From Candidatus Micrarchaeota archaeon (GTDB lineage: Archaea; Iainarchaeota; Iainarchaeia; JAADDC01), in assembly GCA_027046625.1 (NCBI GenBank), contig JALTXX010000002.1:1-23297 (forward strand): 23,297 nucleotides of DNA. The letters are read 5' to 3'. This document shows positions 2-13,717 of the stretch, piece after piece; within the stretch, counting starts at the first letter, position 1, and each line of letters begins with the position of its first letter. The position numbers and the translations under genes are program-made. The notes under the pieces are model-generated. The model was given only the letters and a program-made list of their open reading frames with translations, was not told the DNA's origin and did no database searches.

Positions 2-118
2 TTGAAGGCTCCTGTGGATGTGTTTGTAGTTCCAAAAACAAGATGGAATAAATACTACAATGTTGTGGGAACCATAGAGGAGGTAGCCTCCAGTGAAGGA
101 ATCCAGGTACTTGGATGA
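2..118 (+). CDS. C-terminal fragment of a minimal nucleotidyltransferase (MNT) antitoxin, 5'-truncated by the window
   Basis: Manual frame +2 translation LKAPVDVFVVPKTRWNKYYNVVGTIEEVASSEGIQVLG* resembles the MNT C-terminus (PVD-hydrophobic strand, ending ...EG..L). It overlaps the start of a HEPN gene. Confidence 0.7.
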   Translation: MKAPVDVFVVPKTRWNKYYNVVGTIEEVASSEGIQVLG

Positions 119-506
119 AGTAGTGTGCAGATGGGTTAAAAAGGCTGTGAATGATCTTCAGGCAGGAGAACTATTGCTTAATGAGGGATTCCTGGCAGAA
201 TCCGCCTTTCATTCCCAACAGGCAGCAGAAAAATCCCTTAAGGCTGTCCTTATATCTTTGGGTGTACGTCCGCCCAAAACACACCAGATAGAGATGTTAT
301 TAGAGCTATTATCTGAGAAGGGAGTGGATGTAGATAGTTTGAAGAGGTATGAACCGGAGATATTAAGCACGTATGCTGTGGAGTCAAGGTATCCGGATTT
401 TGAGGAGGAACCGTCTGAGGAGGAAGCGGAAGAGGCCTTAAATATAGCAAATAAGGTTGTTGAGTGGTCTCTCTCATATTTGAGAAATAGAGGAATACAC
501 TGCTAA
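93..506 (+). CDS. HEPN domain protein (MNT-HEPN toxin-antitoxin module)
   Basis: Motifs W..KA..DL..., AFHSQQAAEKSLKA, KTH.I..L and ESRYPD are typical of HEPN (COG2250-type). The start is either GTG93 (GAGGAGG upstream) or TTG111. Confidence 0.9.
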   Translation: MKESRYLDEVVCRWVKKAVNDLQAGELLLNEGFLAESAFHSQQAAEKSLKAVLISLGVRPPKTHQIEMLLELLSEKGVDVDSLKRYEPEILSTYAVESRYPDFEEEPSEEEAEEALNIANKVVEWSLSYLRNRGIHC

Positions 507-1384
507 ATCTTTACGGTATCACACACGTTAATACCCTCTCCTACTAGGCAGATCTTTATCCTAGCAGATTCATAGGGCACCTCCTTTAACGGAACGCCCC
601 AGAGAGAGCAGGTAGCACTTACGTTTGGCGGCACTTCCCACCTGTCACACCTTAGAAACGGAAGGTTTATACCTCCTATCACGTTACCTCCTACATCTAC
701 TGCGAACCAGTACGCAAAGTCACCTTTTCTGGCTGCTAATAGCTCATCCCTTAATGCATCGTATACCTGTACACTTATATTGTTCAGTCTTAGAATGCCT
801 TCAGAGGATACATTGGTAACGGTGAACCCAATCCTAATCTTTTCACATATAAAAGGAAATAGCAGGGCTGCGTTGTGATCGTGAAGCCCATCCAATACTA
901 TGGCTCCCACATTTTCGTTAACGTCGCCGCTGGGTTGGCCACTTGCCCAGAATCCTTCCCCTATCACCCCCATTTCACCTCCCGTAACATAAAACCACCC
1001 CTTGTCTGGTTCAGGAGCTCCAGGCTGTTGATATATGCCCACCCATGCAGTAGTCCATCCCCTTGACCGTAGAATCTCCTTTAGTTTGTTAAGTTGATCT
1101 ACGCTTTTCGGAGCTGCGAGGAACATTCCTCTATTCCTACAATAATAGAATGCGTCTATCCAGTTCATCCCCGTAGAGACCGGTACATAGTAATGGAAGT
1201 ACACTCCATAGGCTCCTCTAGGGACACTCTCAACGAATGCATCCATCACAACAGAGTATATCTGCCCCTGCTGGCCAGAGGTACTCTCCACCATCTGAGA
1301 AACACCCATATAGAGCAACGCCCCAATAGCTATCACTATGGCAATCAACAGCACCGTTGCCACGATGGGTGAAATACCTCTCAT
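503..1384 (-). CDS. Archaeal type IV pilin-like protein (class III signal peptide) with an inserted C-type lectin-like domain
   Basis: The N-terminus MRG/ISPIVATVLLIAIVIAIGALLY is a prepilin-peptidase cleavage motif plus hydrophobic helix. Residues ~64-182 carry CTLD hallmarks: W.DA..YC...G..LA, WVG, W..G, W..GQP, E.., .D, FICE. Confidence 0.85.
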   Translation of the reverse strand: MRGISPIVATVLLIAIVIAIGALLYMGVSQMVESTSGQQGQIYSVVMDAFVESVPRGAYGVYFHYYVPVSTGMNWIDAFYYCRNRGMFLAAPKSVDQLNKLKEILRSRGWTTAWVGIYQQPGAPEPDKGWFYVTGGEMGVIGEGFWASGQPSGDVNENVGAIVLDGLHDHNAALLFPFICEKIRIGFTVTNVSSEGILRLNNISVQVYDALRDELLAARKGDFAYWFAVDVGGNVIGGINLPFLRCDRWEVPPNVSATCSLWGVPLKEVPYESARIKICLVGEGINVCDTVKI

Positions 1385-1403
1385 CCTAACGAAAAAAAAC
1401 GAT

Positions 1404-1419
1404 GAATAAATACCTTTCG
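1404..1419 (-). promoter_or_regulatory. Putative BRE/TATA promoter of the pilin gene (near-leaderless)
   Basis: The minus strand reads CGAAAGGTATTTATT, ending about 20 nt upstream of ATG1384. Confidence 0.5.
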
Positions 1420-1440
1420 GTTGGGAATTGTTATGTATAA

Positions 1441-2394
1441 TTATCTCTTATTGACAGCCCTTCTATACAGGGGGTGTTTTCTAACCTTTTCTATGAATTC
1501 TTTCACAATGGGGCGTCTATGCTCCCCAAGAGCCTTCAGCTCTTCAATGAACTCCTTCAACAGGAGGGCCTCTTCTTCGTCTGCAATGTCTATCCCTTCC
1601 CCCCGCCTGAACTTATCCCTAACAACTATGAAGGCATTCTTTGTGGTTTTTACCTTTATCTTACCAGGATAGCTCTCCAGTCTAAGGCTTCTCAGCTCTT
1701 CAATCTTCTCTTTCAAGAGTTTCTTTCTATTTGCGACAAGTTTATACTTATCTAGGGCCTCTTTCTTTTTAATGGCCTCTCTCACGTCTATGTGAGGCCT
1801 CAAATAGTCGAAGCGGGACAGTCTGGCTGTAATACTTACCAAATCCGGCGTGAATGTTACATAAGGAAGCCCCTCCTTAGCCATCTTGATGACATTATCC
1901 TTTTGATCTTCGTATTTTGCTAGTTCTTCTAGCAAAGACCAGAAAAGACGGGATCTATACCTGTCTTTTCTGAACTTTAATAACAGCGAGGCAAGAAATT
2001 TCCTCCTCTCTGGGTCTGATAGATTTCTATGTAGGTTCATCTCTTTAATGAGTAATATCCCCACCCTTGTAGGTGTAAATTTGTGTAAACCCTCCTCTAT
2101 GAAGTGTTTAACCTCCTGTAGGTAACCCTTTAGCACAAGTTTCTTTATTATGCCCCAAAAGTGACCTACTTCATATTTAGAAGGATCCATTTCGTTTAGT
2201 GCCCTTATTAGAGCTTCCCTATGATGTTTCTGATCTATGTCTAGGTATAATCTTTTGTAAATCCATATGTTAAGAGACCTAAGAGCCTTCTCGAGGGGCA
2301 TCTCTCCTTGTTTAACCTTTCTTAGAAGCTCCTCCAGCCTTTCTAATGCTTCATCCATAAAGTCCCCCCGTAGCTGAAAAGTAACCTCTCCCAT
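1441..2394 (-). CDS. Hypothetical basic, alpha-helical protein with a two-copy internal repeat
   Basis: 317-codon ORF with K/E/L-rich composition like neighbouring genes and no recognisable family. The alternative start is ATG2358 (MDEALERL). Confidence 0.75.
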   Translation of the reverse strand: MGEVTFQLRGDFMDEALERLEELLRKVKQGEMPLEKALRSLNIWIYKRLYLDIDQKHHREALIRALNEMDPSKYEVGHFWGIIKKLVLKGYLQEVKHFIEEGLHKFTPTRVGILLIKEMNLHRNLSDPERRKFLASLLLKFRKDRYRSRLFWSLLEELAKYEDQKDNVIKMAKEGLPYVTFTPDLVSITARLSRFDYLRPHIDVREAIKKKEALDKYKLVANRKKLLKEKIEELRSLRLESYPGKIKVKTTKNAFIVVRDKFRRGEGIDIADEEEALLLKEFIEELKALGEHRRPIVKEFIEKVRKHPLYRRAVNKR

Positions 2395-2446
2395 TTATAT
2401 ATAACACACTGCTCCTTTAAATGCTCACATATACTTTTCTTACTGC

Positions 2447-2532
2447 GCGGGGGTGCCCGAGCCCGGTCAAAGGGGGCGGACTTAAGATCCGCTGGGTTAG
2501 TCCCTGCGCGGGTTCAAATCCCGCCCCCCGCA
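2447..2532 (+). tRNA. tRNA-Leu (anticodon TAA), no intron, CCA not encoded
   Basis: Acceptor stem GCGGGGG/CCCCCGC plus discriminator A, anticodon arm GCGGA-CTTAAGA-TCCGC, long variable arm, T arm GCGGG-TTCAAAT-CCCGC. TTTAAA lies ~25-30 nt upstream. Confidence 0.97.
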
Positions 2533-3491
2533 TCTAACCATGGAGTTTCTGCTTGATCTATCCTAAAGTAAGGGTTTATGGGGGTGTTTATTGGGGTTTT
2601 ATATCCGTGGGATAGGTAAAGATACCCTGTCCATGCAATCATTACCCCGTTATCCACTGCATATTTCTGGGGCACGATGTGCACCTTTGCTCCTCTTTCC
2701 TCCGCCATGGTTTTCATCATCTCTTGGAATCTTGGGCTGGCTGCTACTCCCCCTACAAGTAGCACTTCATCTTTTTCCGTGTGGGCAAGGGCCCTCTCTG
2801 CCACCTCAACCACCATGGCAAAGGCGGTTTCAAGGAGGGAGAATGCCACATCCTCCTTCGGGTACTTCTCCAATGCCCTTTCAGCCGCGGTAAGTAACCC
2901 AGAAAATGTCAGGTCACTTCCCTTTACGGTGTAGGGAAGAGGAATGTATTGTTTTGCATGTTGGGCAAGCTCAAGTAGTTTGGGAGGTCCCGGCATGGAG
3001 AGACCTAATCTCCTTGCAAAGGTGTCAAGCATGTTGCCTATTCCCATATCTAGCGTTTCTCCAAAGATCCTGTACTTGCCTCCCTCATGGGCAATGATCT
3101 GTGTATTCGCCCCTGAGGTGTATACAACTACCGGATCTTCTGCCCCTGTGAGAAGCTTTCCTATCTCTATATGGGAAAGGCTGTGGTTTACTCCGATGAG
3201 AGGAACGTTAAGGGAGGATGCAATATATCTTGCCGCCACAGCTCCCGTCCTGAGTGAGGGGCCAAGACCTGGACCTATAGAAAACGCAACGCCATCTACT
3301 CCCATATTTACCGCCTTCAATAGCGGTTTCCATCCCTCTCTCGAGAATAGATCTGCAGCTTCCCGTGGTAGGATACCCATCCCCTCTGGGGGTCGGAGCA
3401 CAACCCTCTCATCAAAAAGAATACGTCCCCTCTCATCCACTACTCCCACTCCGAAGGTGTGGGCAGTAGACTCAATGCCCAGTGTTTTCAT
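2514..3491 (-). CDS. kae1: tRNA N6-threonylcarbamoyladenosine synthesis protein Kae1 (stand-alone, not fused to Bud32)
   Basis: Motifs LGIESTAHT, GPGLGPSL, NHSLSHIEIG, GETLDMGIGNMLD, GGVAA and DNGVMIAW. The likely start ATG3491 forms an ATGA overlap with the rps27ae stop. Confidence 0.97.
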   Translation of the reverse strand: MKTLGIESTAHTFGVGVVDERGRILFDERVVLRPPEGMGILPREAADLFSREGWKPLLKAVNMGVDGVAFSIGPGLGPSLRTGAVAARYIASSLNVPLIGVNHSLSHIEIGKLLTGAEDPVVVYTSGANTQIIAHEGGKYRIFGETLDMGIGNMLDTFARRLGLSMPGPPKLLELAQHAKQYIPLPYTVKGSDLTFSGLLTAAERALEKYPKEDVAFSLLETAFAMVVEVAERALAHTEKDEVLLVGGVAASPRFQEMMKTMAEERGAKVHIVPQKYAVDNGVMIAWTGYLYLSHGYKTPINTPINPYFRIDQAETPWLDAGGGI

Positions 3492-10369: not shown

Positions 10370-13300
10370 GTGGCGCGTCTCCAGAGGCTTACCCTCAAGC
10401 ACTTCAAATCCTTTAAATCTGCGACTATACCTTTATCAGAGGGATTTACAGCTATAATGGGACCTAATGGAAGTGGTAAGTCCAATATTATCGATGCACT
10501 TATTTTTGTGCTGGGAGAAGGCCGCCTAAGGATAGTGAGAGCCAACAGGCTAAAGGATCTAGTAAATATAAAAGCAAAGGATGGAGAGGCGGTTGTTTCT
10601 ATCGATATTGAGCATGAAGGGAAGACATACAATATTAGCAGAAGTATAAATAGAGCAGGAAACTCTATTTACAGGATAAATGGGAAAAGGGTTACGAGAA
10701 ATGAGGTTATATCCCTTCTTTCATCTATGGGAATCAGCCAAAGAGGTTATAATTTTGTGTTACAGGGAGAGGTGACCAGACTCATAAAGATGACGCCTCA
10801 AGAGAGGCGCCAGATCATAGATGAGATGGCTGGTGTTTCAGACTATGAACAGAAAAAGGAAGAAGCTCTTCAGAAGCTCGATGTAGTTTCCCAACGTATA
10901 AGAGAGGCTTCGATACTACTTGGAGAAAGGGAAGAGATTTTATCAAGACTGGAGAGGGAGAAAAACGATGCGCTGAGATATATGGAGCTAAAGAAAGAGA
11001 TAAACAACCTCAAAAAGAGTCTTTTAAAGAAACAAAGGGAGGAGCTGCGCTCAAGATTGAATGGAGAGGAGAGGGAGCTGAAAAGGTTAGAAGAGCTACT
11101 AACGGATATAGAAGGAAGAATTAGAAATATAGAAGAGGAACTACGCGAAAAAGAGAAAAAGGTGAGGGATTTAACGGACAAAATAACGGAAATATATGCA
11201 TCCTCGGGTGAAGGAGAATTAAATTCTATAATAAATGCTGTGGAGGGAGTGCTTAGGGAAATAGAGGATCTTGAGAGAAAGAAGGAGGAAATGGCCGCAG
11301 AGCTAACCTCCCTGGAAATAAAGGAACAGGAACTGGAGGAGGAGATACTAAGACTGAGAAAGGAACTGGAGGAGATTACCTCCAAGAGGAGGGAGAAGGC
11401 AGAGGAAGTTAACGCACTTAGATCAAGACTAAGCTCTATAGAGGATGCTATAAAGAAAGAGAAGACGGAAGCAAGTTCCATAAAGATGAGAATGGAAGAG
11501 CTTGAGCAGGCCATAGAGGAGCTAAAGGGAAAGTATTCATCCCTAAAGGAGGGGTATGGAAGGGTAGTAGGTGAGTATAATACCAAGCTATCTGTAGTAG
11601 AAAAGCAGAAGAAGCGATGGGATGAGCTAAGAAAGAAGAAGTCAAACATAGAAAAGGAGCTCAACGATCTGGAAGAGAAAAAGAGAACTATTGTGGAGAG
11701 AGAAAAATCTCTTAATGCTGAATACCAACGTCTACAAGAAGAAATAAAGTCTATAAGAGAGGAATTGGCGGAGCTAAAGGGTATGAGTGTAGCACTTAGA
11801 AATATGGGAGTGTCCCTTGAGCTTGTGGAGACACTACTTGAGGCTCAAAGAAGGGGTGAACTGAGGGGTATAAAAGGGTATGTGGCGTCCCTCATATCCT
11901 ATGATCCCAAATACAGGAGGGCCATTGAAGCTGCTGCAGGAAGAAGATTGTTCTACATCGTTGTAGAAACATTCAATGATGCTGTAGAGGCTATAAACTA
12001 TCTAAAGAGAATGGGCATGGGAAGAGCGACCTTTATTCCCCTTGACAGGATAAAACCACACCTGGCGGACGTTCCGAAAAGAGAGGGTGTGTTGGGAAGG
12101 GCTTTGGATCTTGTAAGGTATGATCCTACCCTTGAAAGGGCTATGCGGTATGTGTTTGGAGATACCATTGTAGTGGATACCCTTGAAAGGGCAAAGGGGA
12201 TAGAGGATGTGAGGGTGGTAACCCTTGAAGGAGATGTTGTAGAGCGTTCCGGAGTGTTGACGGGAGGAAGCGTAAAAGGAGAATCAGTACTCAAAGTATT
12301 TGAGTCTGAGAGAAAGAGAATAAGGTTGAAAGAGCTAGAGGAGGAGGCAAGATCTATTGTAAGGGAGCTTGAGCAGGTAAGGAAGGAGTTTGAAGATATA
12401 AGCAGCAGAATATCAAAACTCTATGCAGAAAAATCTCACATAGAGGAAGAGCTGTCGTCCTCACAGGAAGAAGACCTCTCAAAGCTAAAGGAACGGCTTG
12501 AGAGCATGGAGAAGGAGCTTACATCTATCGTAAATAGACTGAGTGATCTAGAGCAGGAGCGTGCCCTTCTTCTGAGAAGGGCAAGAAAACTAGAGGAAGG
12601 AGAATTGTTTGAAGAATATAGTAGATTAAGAAGGGAATATGAGGCAAAATTAAGGGAACTATCTGAATATGATGCTATTATTACAGAAAAGAGGCAGAAA
12701 CTTTCCTACTTGGAGGAGAGTGTTGCAGAGTTAAGGAAAAAGAAAGAAGACAATAAAATTACTATAGCACGTATAGAGGAACGCCTTAAGCAGCTAAAAG
12801 AGGAGCTTTCTAGCCTTGAAGAGAAGAGAAAGATGTTGGAAGATAAGGTAAGCAGTGCAAAGAACGAGCTGAAGGATATGTTGGAGGAGCGAGATAGATT
12901 AGAAGGGGAGATAAGAGAACTGTCAAGGGAGCTTGGTAGACTAAGAGAGGAGAAAAATGTGCACGAAAAGGAACTTATTGAAGTAAAAGCTAGAATCGCA
13001 TCCATAAGGACTCGTTTGGAGGAGGTTGAGAGAAGCTTTGAAGAACAGGAAGGAGAGGTAGTACCTCTTCCACCAAATCCAGATGATACTCTAAGGGAGA
13101 AGGAAGAACAACTGTCTTCACTGGAACCTATAAATATGCGAGCCATTGAAGAGTACGAAGAGATGAAAAAGCTGGTAGATGAGATAAAGGAGAAAATAAA
13201 GAAGTTGGAGGAGGAAAGAAAGGCAATACTAAAGCTTATTGAGGAAATAGAACAGAAAAAGAGAGAGGTGTTTATGGACACCTTCAGAGGACTTTCTAAA

Positions 13301-13717
13301 CAATTTGAAAGAGTTTACAATGAACTGGTAGGTGGAAAGGCAAGATTAAGACTTACAGAGGAAAATATAGATAAGGCAGGACTGATAATAGAAGCAACAC
13401 CTAAAGGGAAGACATTTGTAAACATGGATGCCCTCTCTGGAGGGGAGAAGGCCATGGTGGCCCTATCCTTTATCTTTGCTACAGCTATGTACAAGCCGTC
13501 TCCCTTTTATGTATTAGACGAGCCGGATCTTATGCTGGATAAGGTAAATGCAGAGCGTATGGCAAAATACATAAGGAAACTTTCCAAGAATGCCCAATTC
13601 ATCTTGGTATCTCATAGAGACGTGGTACTAAAGGAGGCAGACCAGATCATTGGTGTTTACCTCGGCCGTGACGGGAGCTCTTTGATCGAGGTGAGGGTCC
13701 CTTCGAGAGGGTCCTAA
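10370..13717 (+). CDS. smc: Chromosome segregation protein SMC
   Basis: Walker A GPNGSGKS, Q-loop, long coiled coils, hinge GRATFIPLD/TLEGD..G.LTGG, signature LSGGE, Walker B YVLDE and H-loop VSHR. Confidence 0.97.
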   Translation: MARLQRLTLKHFKSFKSATIPLSEGFTAIMGPNGSGKSNIIDALIFVLGEGRLRIVRANRLKDLVNIKAKDGEAVVSIDIEHEGKTYNISRSINRAGNSIYRINGKRVTRNEVISLLSSMGISQRGYNFVLQGEVTRLIKMTPQERRQIIDEMAGVSDYEQKKEEALQKLDVVSQRIREASILLGEREEILSRLEREKNDALRYMELKKEINNLKKSLLKKQREELRSRLNGEERELKRLEELLTDIEGRIRNIEEELREKEKKVRDLTDKITEIYASSGEGELNSIINAVEGVLREIEDLERKKEEMAAELTSLEIKEQELEEEILRLRKELEEITSKRREKAEEVNALRSRLSSIEDAIKKEKTEASSIKMRMEELEQAIEELKGKYSSLKEGYGRVVGEYNTKLSVVEKQKKRWDELRKKKSNIEKELNDLEEKKRTIVEREKSLNAEYQRLQEEIKSIREELAELKGMSVALRNMGVSLELVETLLEAQRRGELRGIKGYVASLISYDPKYRRAIEAAAGRRLFYIVVETFNDAVEAINYLKRMGMGRATFIPLDRIKPHLADVPKREGVLGRALDLVRYDPTLERAMRYVFGDTIVVDTLERAKGIEDVRVVTLEGDVVERSGVLTGGSVKGESVLKVFESERKRIRLKELEEEARSIVRELEQVRKEFEDISSRISKLYAEKSHIEEELSSSQEEDLSKLKERLESMEKELTSIVNRLSDLEQERALLLRRARKLEEGELFEEYSRLRREYEAKLRELSEYDAIITEKRQKLSYLEESVAELRKKKEDNKITIARIEERLKQLKEELSSLEEKRKMLEDKVSSAKNELKDMLEERDRLEGEIRELSRELGRLREEKNVHEKELIEVKARIASIRTRLEEVERSFEEQEGEVVPLPPNPDDTLREKEEQLSSLEPINMRAIEEYEEMKKLVDEIKEKIKKLEEERKAILKLIEEIEQKKREVFMDTFRGLSKQFERVYNELVGGKARLRLTEENIDKAGLIIEATPKGKTFVNMDALSGGEKAMVALSFIFATAMYKPSPFYVLDEPDLMLDKVNAERMAKYIRKLSKNAQFILVSHRDVVLKEADQIIGVYLGRDGSSLIEVRVPSRGS

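What the first reader, a model, noticed from the sequence alone, without database searches (positions are those of the whole stretch)
503..1384. Type IV pilin with a C-type lectin domain inserted into its head: candidate glycan-binding adhesin
Seen: a class III signal peptide (MRG/ISPIVATVLL) and a CTLD at aa ~64-182 (nt ~839-1195). The CTLD is flanked on both sides by pilin-like beta strands (YSVVMDAF before, IGFTVTNV after), so it looks inserted rather than appended. The outer CTLD cysteine pair (YYC82...FIC180) is kept. Both inner cysteines are replaced together (ENC to ENV; WNDxxC to LHDHNA). The sugar-site motif is QPS, close to galactose-type QPD. Established: CTLDs bind glycans, often Ca2+-dependently, and archaeal surfaces are heavily glycosylated. 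Inference: this may be a minor pilin that lets a probably symbiotic archaeon recognise host S-layer glycans. I do not know of a characterised archaeal pilin with this architecture.
Basis: partly seen in the sequence, partly recalled or inferred. Interest (0 to 1): 0.8.

Follow-up and report, generated by a model that had tools for sequence, protein, structure and literature searches.

The report
Archaeal pilin carrying a lectin domain
This gene from a tiny-genome vent archaeon encodes a pilus-type surface subunit with an animal-style C-type lectin domain built into its head, one of at least twelve such genes that probably let the cell grip other cells.

Summary
ORF 503-1384 (-) encodes 293 aa with three parts. 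The first is an archaeal class III signal peptide and helix (TIGR02537, 28.8 bits, cut-off 20). The second is a classical C-type lectin domain (CTLD). The third is a four-cysteine beta-sandwich.

This copy alone scores below Pfam's Lectin_C threshold (19.7 vs 22.6 bits). The family profile (collectin-11, E 4.6e-12) and the predicted fold (Foldseek prob 1.00; VIA Z 9.8) establish the CTLD. Structural alignments suggest the CTLD is inserted after the first strand of a pilin/archaellin-like sandwich.

- The gene is one of 12 full paralogues plus one fragment. This is the largest gene family in a 652-kb genome.
- All copies carry a roughly 60-nt upstream element that is better conserved than any coding part.
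- The sugar-site motifs vary between copies. This copy keeps only 3 of the 5 canonical Ca2+ ligands, so canonical glycan binding is doubtful here.
- All five tRNA-Leu genes lie beside family members.

I read it as a diversified adhesin-pilin repertoire. Assembly, ligand and expression are untested. This scan had already noted paralogues of this family on other DNA of the same genome. My literature searches found no paper describing the architecture.

The parts
503..1384 (-). CTLD-pilin coding sequence, 293 aa; stop codon at 503-505
   Evidence: It is one of 12 full-length paralogues in the genome.
1295..1384 (-). Class III signal peptide (MRG, aa 1-3) and hydrophobic N-terminal helix (aa 4-30)
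   Evidence: TIGR02537 at 28.8 bits against a cut-off of 20, aa 2-31. Model helix 6-29. This is the best conserved coding part among paralogues (76% aa identity).
1232..1252 (-). Strand bA (aa 45-51, YSVVMDA), read as the first strand of the pilin-type sandwich
   Evidence: Model strand 45-51, block pLDDT 80-84. Pilin, archaellin and FlaF alignments start at model residues 13-41 and end at 291-293. Docking of aa 31-60 on the C-domain got weak support only.
836..1210 (-). C-type lectin-like domain (aa 59-183)
878..937 (-). Ligand-site stretch aa 150-169: QPS ... E157 ... LHD. It holds 3 of the 5 canonical Ca2+-site-2 ligands, and the inner cysteine is replaced by V159.
   Evidence: Alignment to DC-SIGNR. 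Motifs vary among the 12 paralogues. Model pLDDT is under 50 in aa 119-140 and 151-157.
506..835 (-). C-terminal beta-sandwich (aa 184-293). It has four invariant cysteines (C246, C259, C279, C288) and an N191-x-S sequon.
   Evidence: Folded alone: pLDDT 89.4, all-beta. VIA matches: FlaF/FlaG 5tug Z 7.5, archaellins Z 6.7-6.9, Pyrobaculum pilus 8fk7 Z 6.3, tied with generic Ig-like domains. Invariant columns. Sequon present in 10 of 12 paralogues.
1385..1440 (-). Conserved upstream element that fills the whole intergenic space. Read on the gene's strand: TTATACATAAC (1430-1440), CCGAAAGGTATTTATTCATCG with BRE/TATA-like boxes (1400-1420), T8 tract (1392-1399), CGTTAGG, ATG.
   Evidence: Mean pairwise identity is 0.895 over 62 nt in 11 copies. 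That compares with 0.27 further upstream and 0.38-0.79 in the coding sequence. The promoter reading is inference.
93..506 (+). HEPN gene, convergent with the pilin gene and overlapping its stop codon
   Evidence: Pfam HEPN, E 1.2e-32. All 3 HEPN copies of the genome abut a CTLD-pilin gene.
2..115 (+). 3' end of the nucleotidyltransferase (MNT) partner of HEPN, cut by the contig end
   Evidence: The frame-2 translation resembles, by eye, the C termini of the two MNT genes that precede the other HEPN copies. It was not scored.
1441..2394 (-). 317-aa ORF of unknown family, co-oriented directly upstream of the pilin gene
   Evidence: No Pfam match at E <= 0.001. One paralogue lies in the same position upstream of the pilin copy at C4:31507.
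2447..2532 (+). tRNA-Leu (TAA), one of five tRNA-Leu genes that all lie beside CTLD-pilin genes

Best explanation
The gene encodes a modular archaeal type IV pilin-like surface subunit.

How it most likely works (inferred): A prepilin peptidase would cut after MRG. The hydrophobic helix would anchor the protein in the membrane or in the core of a type IV filament built by one of the genome's several assembly systems. The head is a small pilin/archaellin-like beta-sandwich. A classical C-type lectin domain is inserted after its first strand and so would point outward.

The gene is one member of a lineage-specific family of at least 12-13 genes. All share the same helix and the same upstream control element. 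They differ most in the linker, the lectin loops and the sandwich. I read the family as a repertoire of adhesin subunits by which this tiny-genome, probably cell-associated archaeon binds surface molecules of other cells.

For this particular copy the canonical Ca2+/sugar site is incomplete. Binding, if any, is probably non-canonical: Ca2+-independent, or to an altered glycan or a non-glycan ligand.

Shown: the domain architecture, the family size, the upstream element and the motif variation. Inferred: processing, assembly into a filament, outward display, adhesion and the ligand.
For: Architecture:
- TIGR02537 scores above its cut-off.
- The CTLD is supported by the family profile, Pfam on 16 of 16 members and the fold.
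- The C-domain is a confident beta-sandwich, pLDDT 89.4.

Insertion topology:
- Against the whole model, FlaF/FlaG 5tug gives Z 9.2 with 112 aligned over model range 13..291. FlaF 4p94 gives Z 8.0, 104 aligned, 41..293. The Pyrobaculum type IV pilus 8fk7 gives Z 7.9, 93 aligned, 41..293. Archaellin 9eq7 gives Z 7.5, 113 aligned, 37..293.
- Against the C-domain alone, the same chains give Z 7.5, 6.8, 6.3 and 6.7 with 81-93 aligned, and they start 13-25 residues later in the chain.
- Docking of aa 31-60 on the C-domain scored ipSAE 0.53 against a best control of 0.00, with runs agreeing in at least 85% of contacts and partner pLDDT 56-57. The tool rates this as weak support. The mark was reached by 58 of 80 solved complexes and 2 of 110 mismatches. 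At a score of 0.60 or under it was reached by only 7 of those 80, and by both mismatches that passed.

Machinery in the genome: 7 T2SSE ATPase matches over cut-off, 8 T2SSF matches over cut-off and 2 Peptidase_A24 matches over cut-off.

Repertoire:
- There are 12 full paralogues and one 5' fragment at a contig end. This is the largest of the families among about 766 ORFs.
- The 12 copies group together on a tree (99/98), apart from three copies of a same-genus species (97/93).
- The site tripeptide takes 7 forms: QPS, QPD, EPT, QPE, KPD, EPS, EPN.
- Canonical EPN/QPD + E + WND sets occur in 1 of 12 paralogues and 2 of 4 distant homologues, so the ancestor was probably a working lectin.
- The shared upstream element is 0.895 identical while synonymous sites are saturated, pS about 0.75.

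Lifestyle: the genome is 652 kb at 94% completeness. The only run holding the DNA is labelled hydrothermal vent metagenome.
Against: - No paralogue lies in a pilus operon. All sit among housekeeping genes, toxin-antitoxin-type MNT-HEPN pairs or tRNAs, so nothing links them to a particular machine.
- This copy scores under Pfam's Lectin_C threshold. It keeps 3 of 5 Ca2+ ligands and lacks the inner disulfide.
- The ligand loops of the model are unreliable, with pLDDT under 50 at aa 119-140 and 151-157.
- The sandwich's likeness to pilin heads is of middling strength. It ties with Ig-like domains of glycosidases at Z 7.5-7.7. Foldseek gave no hit at E <= 0.001. A profile comparison with short pilins of the genome and relatives was not significant beyond the helix (E 0.03, probability 1.6%).
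- The closest fold match for the pilin body, FlaF/FlaG, is not a filament subunit.
- The alignment ranges give only the first and last aligned residue, so pairing of strand 45-51 with the sandwich is inferred, not seen.
Confidence: 0.6

Rival explanations
1. The proteins are not filament subunits. They are membrane-anchored or short pseudopilus-borne surface lectins. They would work like the class III signal peptide sugar-binding proteins of Sulfolobus (the 'bindosome'; recalled, not checked here) and capture glycans or sugars at the cell surface, for uptake or for holding onto a matrix.
For: - The genes stand alone, away from any assembly operon.
- The best structural match of the pilin body is FlaF/FlaG, which are anchored, non-filament proteins.
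- A separate short pilin (144 aa) with the same MRGISPIV leader exists and could be the true filament subunit.
Against: - The N-terminal helix is the most conserved coding part across the 12 paralogues, as expected if it must pack into a common filament core.
- A scavenging receptor would not obviously need 12 diverged copies.
- No transporter genes lie next to the copies.
Confidence: 0.2
2. The lectin domain of this copy, and of most paralogues, no longer binds sugars. It would bind a protein or other non-glycan ligand, as many animal C-type lectin-like domains such as NK-cell receptors do. Alternatively it is a decaying copy.
For: - Only 3 of 5 Ca2+-site ligands remain in this copy, and 8 of 12 paralogues have just three.
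- This copy is one of 3 of 12 under the Pfam cut-off.
- CD69 and other NK-type domains rank among its sequence and fold matches.
Against: - The ORF is intact and its upstream element is intact.
- The fold-defining residues are invariant: C82, C180, WVGI, W130, W146, P151, D169.
- Crude dN/dS of 0.17-0.37 in the CTLD argues against free decay, although synonymous sites are saturated.
- Ca2+-independent C-type lectins that bind sugars exist, such as SPL-2 (6a7s) among the fold matches.
Confidence: 0.3
3. The lectin domains are diversified by a diversity-generating retroelement, as described for C-type-lectin-fold proteins of other small-genome archaea.
For: Papers describe such retroelements and CLec-fold targets in Nanoarchaeota and related archaea (PMC4372165 and PMC5006420, search listing and abstracts only; PMC7443923, passages).
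Against: - No reverse transcriptase (PF00078) was found in the 94%-complete genome.
- The domain here is the classical Lectin_C type. It is not the formylglycine-generating-enzyme subclass named in those passages.
- Divergence is spread over the whole gene and synonymous sites are saturated.
Confidence: 0.03

Closest known systems
Modular minor pilins of Streptococcus sanguinis type IV pili: PilC (concanavalin-A-like lectin module, binds glycans) and PilB (vWA module). PMC9934059, passages read.
   Same: Both have a class III signal peptide and a pilin moiety plus a bulky ligand-binding module. In PilC the lectin module turns the pilus into a glycan adhesin.
   Different: - Those are bacterial, with a different lectin fold.
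- Their module is grafted at the C terminus of the pilin moiety, whereas here a C-type lectin domain sits inside the head after its first strand.
- They are single genes inside the pil operon, whereas here 12-13 dispersed paralogues lie outside any operon.
- Binding is shown for PilC and untested here.
Animal C-type lectin carbohydrate-recognition domains (collectin-11 4yli, DC-SIGN/DC-SIGNR 1k9j, langerin, codakine 2vuz)
   Same: - The sequence profile matches (E 4.6e-12).
- The fold is shared, as are the outer disulfide, the WIGL-type motif and the position of the EPN/QPD and WND motifs.
   Different: - The inner disulfide is absent in all 12 paralogues.
- This copy has QPS and LHD in place of EPN/QPD and WND.
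- The host is an archaeon and the domain is embedded in a pilin.
Archaeal type IV pilins and archaellins, and the archaellin-like FlaF/FlaG (8fk7, 9eq7, 5tfy, 5tug, 4p94)
   Same: They share an N-terminal class III helix followed by a beta-sandwich head.
   Different: - None of those matched chains carries an inserted lectin domain.
- Likeness of the sandwich is moderate (Z 6.3-9.2).
- There is no significant sequence similarity beyond the helix.
Lectin-like minor pilins PilX1/PilX2 of the episymbiotic bacterium Saccharibacteria TM7x (PMC11623550, passages read)
   Same: An ultrasmall cell that lives on other cells uses type IV pili whose accessory pilins have lectin-like C-terminal domains. 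The authors suggest they recognise host glycans.
   Different: - Those are bacterial, with L-type and PLL-type lectin-like folds and two genes.
- The authors state that direct pilin-glycan binding was not shown there either.

Membership tests
Archaeal type IV pilin / archaellin superfamily (class III signal peptide proteins) | N-terminal class III signal peptide, with a short charged leader ending in G, followed by a hydrophobic helix | tested here: met
   TIGR02537 scores 28.8 bits against a cut-off of 20, and 13 of 16 family members match it. Pfam Pilin_N reaches only 13.3 bits against 25.2.
Archaeal type IV pilin / archaellin superfamily (class III signal peptide proteins) | Cleavage by a PibD/FlaK-type prepilin peptidase | not testable with these tools
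   Two Peptidase_A24 genes over cut-off are present in the genome. Cleavage itself needs an assay.
Archaeal type IV pilin / archaellin superfamily (class III signal peptide proteins) | Beta-sandwich head of the pilin/archaellin type | tested here: inconclusive
   Whole model: 5tug Z 9.2, 4p94 Z 8.0, 8fk7 Z 7.9, 9eq7 Z 7.5. C-domain alone: Z 6.3-7.5, tied with generic Ig-like domains. hhalign with short pilins is not significant beyond the helix.
Archaeal type IV pilin / archaellin superfamily (class III signal peptide proteins) | Polymerises into a filament made by a T2SSE/T2SSF-type machine | not testable with these tools
   Machines are present (7 ATPase matches; T2SSF matches), but none is next to any paralogue.
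C-type lectin-like domain (Pfam Lectin_C, PF00059) | Sequence match over the curated threshold | tested here: inconclusive
   This copy scores 19.7 bits against 22.6. Nine of 12 paralogues are over the cut-off in the genome scan. All 16 of 16 family members match at E <= 0.01. The family profile hits solved CTLDs at E 4.6e-12.
C-type lectin-like domain (Pfam Lectin_C, PF00059) | CTLD fold | tested here: met
   Foldseek prob 1.00, E 1.1e-5 and up, target TM 0.64-0.76. VIA Z 9.8 to 2vuz, with 33 chains at Z >= 8, nearly all CTLDs.
C-type lectin-like domain (Pfam Lectin_C, PF00059) | Outer disulfide (helix a1 to strand b5) and WIGL-type motif | tested here: met
   C82 and C180 are invariant in 16 of 16 members. 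WVGI lies at aa 114-117. The alignment to DC-SIGNR agrees.
C-type lectin-like domain (Pfam Lectin_C, PF00059) | Inner disulfide (b3 to the loop after b4) | tested here: not met
   V159 and A172 stand at the two cysteine positions. Both cysteines are absent in all 12 paralogues.
Ca2+-dependent carbohydrate-recognition domains (the sugar-binding subset of CTLDs) | Five Ca2+-site-2 ligands: E/Q-P-N/D, E, and N-D of WND. The identity of the five is recalled. Positions were mapped by alignment. | tested here: not met
   This copy has Q150, S152, E157, H168 and D169, which is 3 of 5. One of 12 paralogues and 2 of 4 distant homologues have all five.
Diversity-generating retroelement target proteins (CLec fold) | A reverse transcriptase and a template repeat nearby or in the genome | tested here: not met
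   No PF00078 match in the 94%-complete genome. Template repeats were not searched for separately.
Bacterial modular type IV pilins (PilB/PilC type) | Extra module grafted onto the C terminus of a bacterial pilin moiety, encoded in the pil locus | tested here: not met
   Here the module lies between strand 45-51 and the rest of the head. The genes are outside pilus loci. It works like these pilins but is not a member.

The most novel reading that the evidence does not exclude
The 12-13 lectin-pilin genes form a variable host-recognition system built from interchangeable cassettes.

- Every copy has the same fixed 5' block: a roughly 60-nt control element, then the helix-coding start.
- Four copies end directly against near-identical tRNA-Leu genes. 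The variable lectin-plus-sandwich part is therefore bracketed by conserved DNA, which could drive gene conversion or exchange between loci.
- The T6-T9 tract between the TATA-like box and the start codon could switch single copies on and off by slippage.

The result would be a paralogue-based counterpart of Neisseria pilE/pilS variation, or of the retroelement-diversified lectin-fold proteins of other small-genome archaea. It would let the symbiont track changing or multiple host surfaces.
Probability: 0.15. Interest if true: 0.85.

Novelty: new variant of a known kind. Interest (0 to 1): 0.66.

Why it matters
How ultrasmall archaea that live on other cells find and hold their hosts is largely unknown, and few candidate recognition molecules exist. 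Here a 652-kb genome spends its largest gene family, about 1.6% of its DNA, on pilin-type proteins that display a well-understood ligand-binding fold. Their ligand-site residues differ from copy to copy.

That gives a concrete set of proteins to express and test on glycan arrays or host envelopes. It also gives a natural series for asking which site variants still bind Ca2+ and sugar.

The case shows that the classical, largely animal-type C-type lectin domain has been taken up and expanded in one archaeal order. It was found in 4 of 215 genomes of the phylum and in none of 14 control prokaryotes. The shared upstream element and the tRNA-Leu linkage may say something about how such families are regulated and spread in streamlined genomes.

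Tried and rejected
- **CTLD-less relatives of the C-terminal sandwich.** A word-indexed search with aa 184-293 found only the family itself: 2 hits among 144 candidates. A profile of the C-domain found nothing at E <= 0.01 among 373 candidates of 58-198 aa. So 'homologues without the insert' were not found. The sensitivity is limited by the word index.
- **Profile comparison with short pilins.** The family was compared with nine short pilins of this genome and relatives. Only the helix aligned significantly (E 2.2e-10). The heads aligned collinearly but not significantly (E 0.03-0.08).
- **Foldseek on the C-domain alone.** No hit at E <= 0.001.
- **Diversity-generating retroelement.** No reverse transcriptase found.
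- **Integrated-element reading of the tRNA-Leu linkage.** blastn-short found no partial tRNA-Leu copies outside tRNA genes. Two pilin loci of the same-genus genome G004 have no tRNA.
- **Phase variation of the T tract.** Only one public run holds the DNA, and it is kept as contigs. Those contigs collapse the paralogues over 1300-1500. One contig with an extra A behind 1391 cannot be told from a T9 paralogue. Not testable here.
- **Expression.** No RNA holder is listed for this DNA.
- **Positive selection.** Synonymous sites are saturated (pS about 0.75), so the crude dN/dS values of 0.12-0.45 by region say little.
- **Scan of species-representative genomes for the family.** The scan used only N-terminal patterns. 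It returned four short pilin-like matches in Woesearchaeota, Pacearchaeota and Micrarchaeota records. The one I translated (L029) has no lectin domain.
- **Iho670.** It did not appear in my structure lists, and I did not test it.
- **Supplementary files.** These were not available. Domain tables in supplements of DPANN or pilin surveys could mention such proteins.
Full report
**What is there.** The window's first 2.6 kb reads as follows:
- the cut 3' end of a nucleotidyltransferase (MNT) gene at 2-115, + strand;
- a HEPN gene at 93-506, + strand (Pfam E 1.2e-32);
- the gene in question at 503-1384, - strand, 293 aa;
- a 56-nt intergenic stretch;
- a 317-aa ORF of no known family at 1441-2394, - strand;
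- tRNA-Leu(TAA) at 2447-2532.

Beyond these lie housekeeping genes: Kae1, ribosomal proteins, initiation factors.

**Checking the observation.** The N terminus MRG/ISPIVATVLLIAIVIAIGALLY matches the NCBIfam archaellin/type IV pilin N-terminal model above its cut-off (28.8 vs 20 bits). It matches Pfam Pilin_N only weakly (13.3 vs 25.2). Pfam Lectin_C covers aa 72-182 end to end, but at 19.7 bits, below the 22.6 gathering score. Taken alone this would be marginal. Three independent lines make it solid:
- All 16 of 16 family members match Lectin_C at E <= 0.01, best 6.3e-13.
- A profile of ten paralogues finds collectin-11 (E 4.6e-12), DC-SIGN, surfactant proteins and mannose-binding proteins among solved structures.
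- The AlphaFold2 model (mean pLDDT 68) matches CTLD structures by Foldseek (prob 1.00) and by VIA-align (Z 9.8 to codakine 2vuz, rmsd 3.5, 123 aligned; 33 chains at Z >= 8).

C82 and C180 are the outer cysteine pair. V159 and A172 replace the inner pair. QPS (150-152) stands where EPN/QPD stands. LHD (167-169) stands where WND stands.

**Inserted or appended.** The model has a helix (6-29), a linker, a strand at 45-51 (block pLDDT 80-84), the CTLD (59-183) and an all-beta C-terminal domain (185-292). Folded alone, the C-terminal domain is a confident beta-sandwich (pLDDT 89.4).

The table compares how four archaeal chains align to the whole model and to the C-domain alone.

| Chain | Whole model: Z, aligned, model range | C-domain alone: Z |
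|---|---|---|
| FlaF/FlaG 5tug | 9.2, 112, 13..291 | 7.5 |
| FlaF 4p94 | 8.0, 104, 41..293 | 6.8 |
| Pyrobaculum calidifontis type IV pilus 8fk7 | 7.9, 93, 41..293 | 6.3 |
| Halobacterium archaellin 9eq7 | 7.5, 113, 37..293 | 6.7 |

Against the whole model these alignments span the CTLD without using it. Against the C-domain alone they have 81-93 aligned residues and start 13-25 residues later in the chain. So the segment before the CTLD adds what, in real pilins and archaellins, precedes the second strand.

A docking test of aa 31-60 on the C-domain gave ipSAE 0.53 against a best control of 0.00, with runs agreeing in at least 85% of contacts and partner pLDDT 56-57. The tool rates this as weak support. 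The mark was reached by 58 of 80 solved complexes and 2 of 110 mismatches. At scores of 0.60 or under it was reached by only 7 of those 80, and by both mismatches that passed.

I therefore regard insertion after the first head strand as likely (about 70-75%), not proven. The ranges show only end points, and I could not inspect coordinates. At the sequence level the head is not significantly similar to short pilins of this genome or its relatives. No CTLD-less homologue of the sandwich was found.

**The family.** The genome holding the window is 652 kb in 18 contigs, 94% complete. It contains 12 full-length paralogues (38-71% identical to this one) on 7 contigs. A thirteenth 5' end sits at the edge of contig C1. 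In an all-against-all comparison of about 766 ORFs this is the largest family, with 12 members against 7 for the next, the T2SSE ATPases.

In a database of 5.8 billion proteins the word-indexed search found only nine other members, all matching this genome's contig lengths. An exhaustive HMMER search added four distant full-length homologues at 25-28% identity. Three of them belong to a same-genus genome, G004. Every other hit I looked up (8 of 8) was an animal multi-CTLD protein: seven from fishes (mannose receptor-like, lymphocyte antigen 75-like) and one from a krill.

Among 41 related genomes the full architecture appears only in G000 and G004. A genome of the same order has a 1,029-aa pilin-like protein with several CTLDs. 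Lectin_C was found in 4 of 215 genomes of the phylum, all in this one order, and in 0 of 14 control genomes. On a maximum-likelihood tree the 12 copies form one group (99/98) and the G004-type copies another (97/93). The expansions are therefore lineage-specific. The tree is unrooted, and I included only 3 of the G004-type sequences.

**What varies and what does not.** The helix is the best conserved coding part (76% mean identity). The linker and first strand (33%), the sandwich (36%) and the CTLD loops (42-43%) vary most. Synonymous sites are saturated (pS about 0.75; 0.51 in the helix part), so the duplications are old and dN/dS is uninformative.

The five positions that hold Ca2+ and sugar in canonical C-type lectins vary strikingly. 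The identity of the five is recalled; I mapped the positions by alignment. The tripeptide is QPS, QPD, EPT, QPE, KPD, EPS or EPN. The WND motif is WND, WDD, LHD, VHD, LDD or WVD. By my count, 1 of 12 copies has all five canonical residues, 3 have four and 8 have three. This copy has three: Q150, E157, D169. Two of the four distant homologues have full EPN/QPD + E + WND sets, so a working Ca2+-dependent lectin is the likely ancestor.

This copy is one of the three paralogues that miss the Pfam threshold. The domain is intact and constrained, but its binding mode is open.

**The upstream element.** All 12 copies and the C1 fragment carry nearly the same roughly 60 nt before the ATG. Read on the gene's strand it is TTATACATAAC, about 20 nt, CCGAAAGGTATTTATTCATCG, a run of 6-9 T, CGTTAGG, ATG. 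Mean pairwise identity is 0.895 over 62 nt in the 11 copies with enough flank. It is 0.27 just upstream and 0.38-0.79 along the coding sequence.

With synonymous sites saturated, this means strong selection on, or homogenisation of, a non-coding element. I read CGAAAGG-TATTTATT as a BRE/TATA-type core promoter with a near-leaderless start, and TTATACATAAC as an upstream site. That reading is inference.

TTATACATAAC is the most frequent 11-mer of the genome, with 33 copies where about 0.3 would be expected for a random 11-mer. Thirteen sit 43-47 nt before lectin-pilin start codons. Others include one 38 nt before a T2SSE ATPase gene and eight within C18:25.7-30.8 kb. G004's copy lacks the element.

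**Genomic setting.**
- All three HEPN genes of the genome abut the 3' end of a lectin-pilin gene, each with an MNT partner.
- All five tRNA-Leu genes, out of 44 tRNAs, lie beside lectin-pilin genes. Four abut the stop codon convergently at 0-6 nt. The fifth is the window's, 1,063 nt away.
- A pilin 3' remnant lies 8 nt from a tRNA-Ser.
- I found no att-like partial tRNA copies, so this linkage is unexplained.
- None of the copies lies in a pilus operon.
- The genome has 7 T2SSE ATPase matches, 8 T2SSF matches and 2 prepilin-peptidase matches over cut-off.
- There is also a 144-aa pilin with the same MRGISPIV leader.

**How it most likely works.** See Best explanation. In short, the protein would be processed at MRG/I, anchored by its helix in a type IV filament or in the membrane, and would display an outward-facing CTLD. 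The family would supply alternative or mixed binding heads for attachment to other cells.

Shown: architecture, family, conserved control element, site variation. Inferred: processing, assembly, display, adhesion, ligand.

The main rivals are anchored non-filament surface lectins, a non-glycan ligand for this copy, and diversification by a retroelement. The last is nearly excluded: no reverse transcriptase was found.

**Comparison with what is known.** Functionally the nearest cases are bacterial. The first is the modular lectin pilin PilC of Streptococcus sanguinis (PMC9934059, passages). The second is the lectin-like minor pilins of the episymbiont TM7x (PMC11623550, passages). Both differ in lectin fold, in having the module at the C terminus and in lying within pilus loci.

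C-type-lectin-fold proteins described in small-genome archaea are retroelement targets of another subclass (PMC7443923, passages; PMC5006420 and PMC4372165, listing and abstracts).

Five full-text searches found no archaeal pilin with a C-type lectin domain. Supplements were not available. Earlier notes of this scan (e1-920025, e1-1148743) had already described paralogues of this family elsewhere in the same genome with the same architectural reading. As far as those notes show, the family size, upstream element, site variation, tRNA-Leu linkage and phyletic spread are added here.

**Verdict.** This is a real, well-supported domain architecture and a new variant of a known kind (modular lectin pilins), expanded into a repertoire in a minimal genome. 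The function is plausible but untested, and canonical sugar binding by this particular copy is doubtful.

Noticed in passing
window 2447-2532; genome contigs C4:32373-32457, C7:53841-53925, C9:9094-9177, C12:2230-2313: All five tRNA-Leu genes of the genome lie beside lectin-pilin genes. Four abut the pilin stop codon convergently at 0-6 nt. A pilin 3' remnant also sits 8 nt from tRNA-Ser(CGA) on C16. No att-like repeats were found, so this is unexplained.
   Followed up: partly
window 1430-1440 and 32 other places in the genome, e.g. C18:25728-30815 (8 copies) and C3:21794: TTATACATAAC is the most frequent 11-mer of the genome, with 33 copies. Thirteen lie at a fixed distance before lectin-pilin genes. 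One lies 38 nt before a T2SSE ATPase gene. One pair forms an inverted repeat at C18:29715/29747. It could be a regulator site or a mobile-element promoter.
   Followed up: partly
window 2-506; C16:58361-59064; C9:10098-10836: Three MNT-HEPN (toxin-antitoxin-type) gene pairs each end against the 3' end of a lectin-pilin gene. The window's MNT is cut by the contig end.
   Followed up: partly
window 1441-2394 (-): A 317-aa helical ORF without any Pfam match lies directly upstream of the pilin gene. Its only paralogue (C4:30531-31304) sits in the same position before another lectin-pilin copy.
   Followed up: no
genome-wide (contigs C3, C4, C10, C16): Seven T2SSE ATPase matches over cut-off, and several ATPase/T2SSF pairs, occur in a 652-kb genome. 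This is an unusually heavy investment in type IV filament machines.
   Followed up: partly
L021 (G015:C49) 325-3411: A same-order genome encodes a 1,029-aa protein with a pilin-like N-terminal helix and several long-form C-type lectin domains (EPN/WND type). This is a different architecture using the same domain.
   Followed up: no
genome-wide: A set of overlapping 11-mers (ATTAGTCTGATTTGAAC and neighbours) occurs 24 times, and TTTGGGGTTGAAA-type words occur 23-25 times. This looks like a repeat array, possibly CRISPR. I did not locate it.
   Followed up: no
window 10370-13717 (+): A 1,115-aa ORF has a weak, sub-threshold T2SSF-like stretch at 11717-11857 (E 0.006). The local AT/GC skew is opposite to the rest of the window.
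   Followed up: no
window 1300-1500: In the one public run that holds this DNA, summed contig depth rises from about 9 in the unique flanks to 130-200 over the shared 5' block of the family. This fits many collapsed copies, but it is not a copy number.
   Followed up: partly
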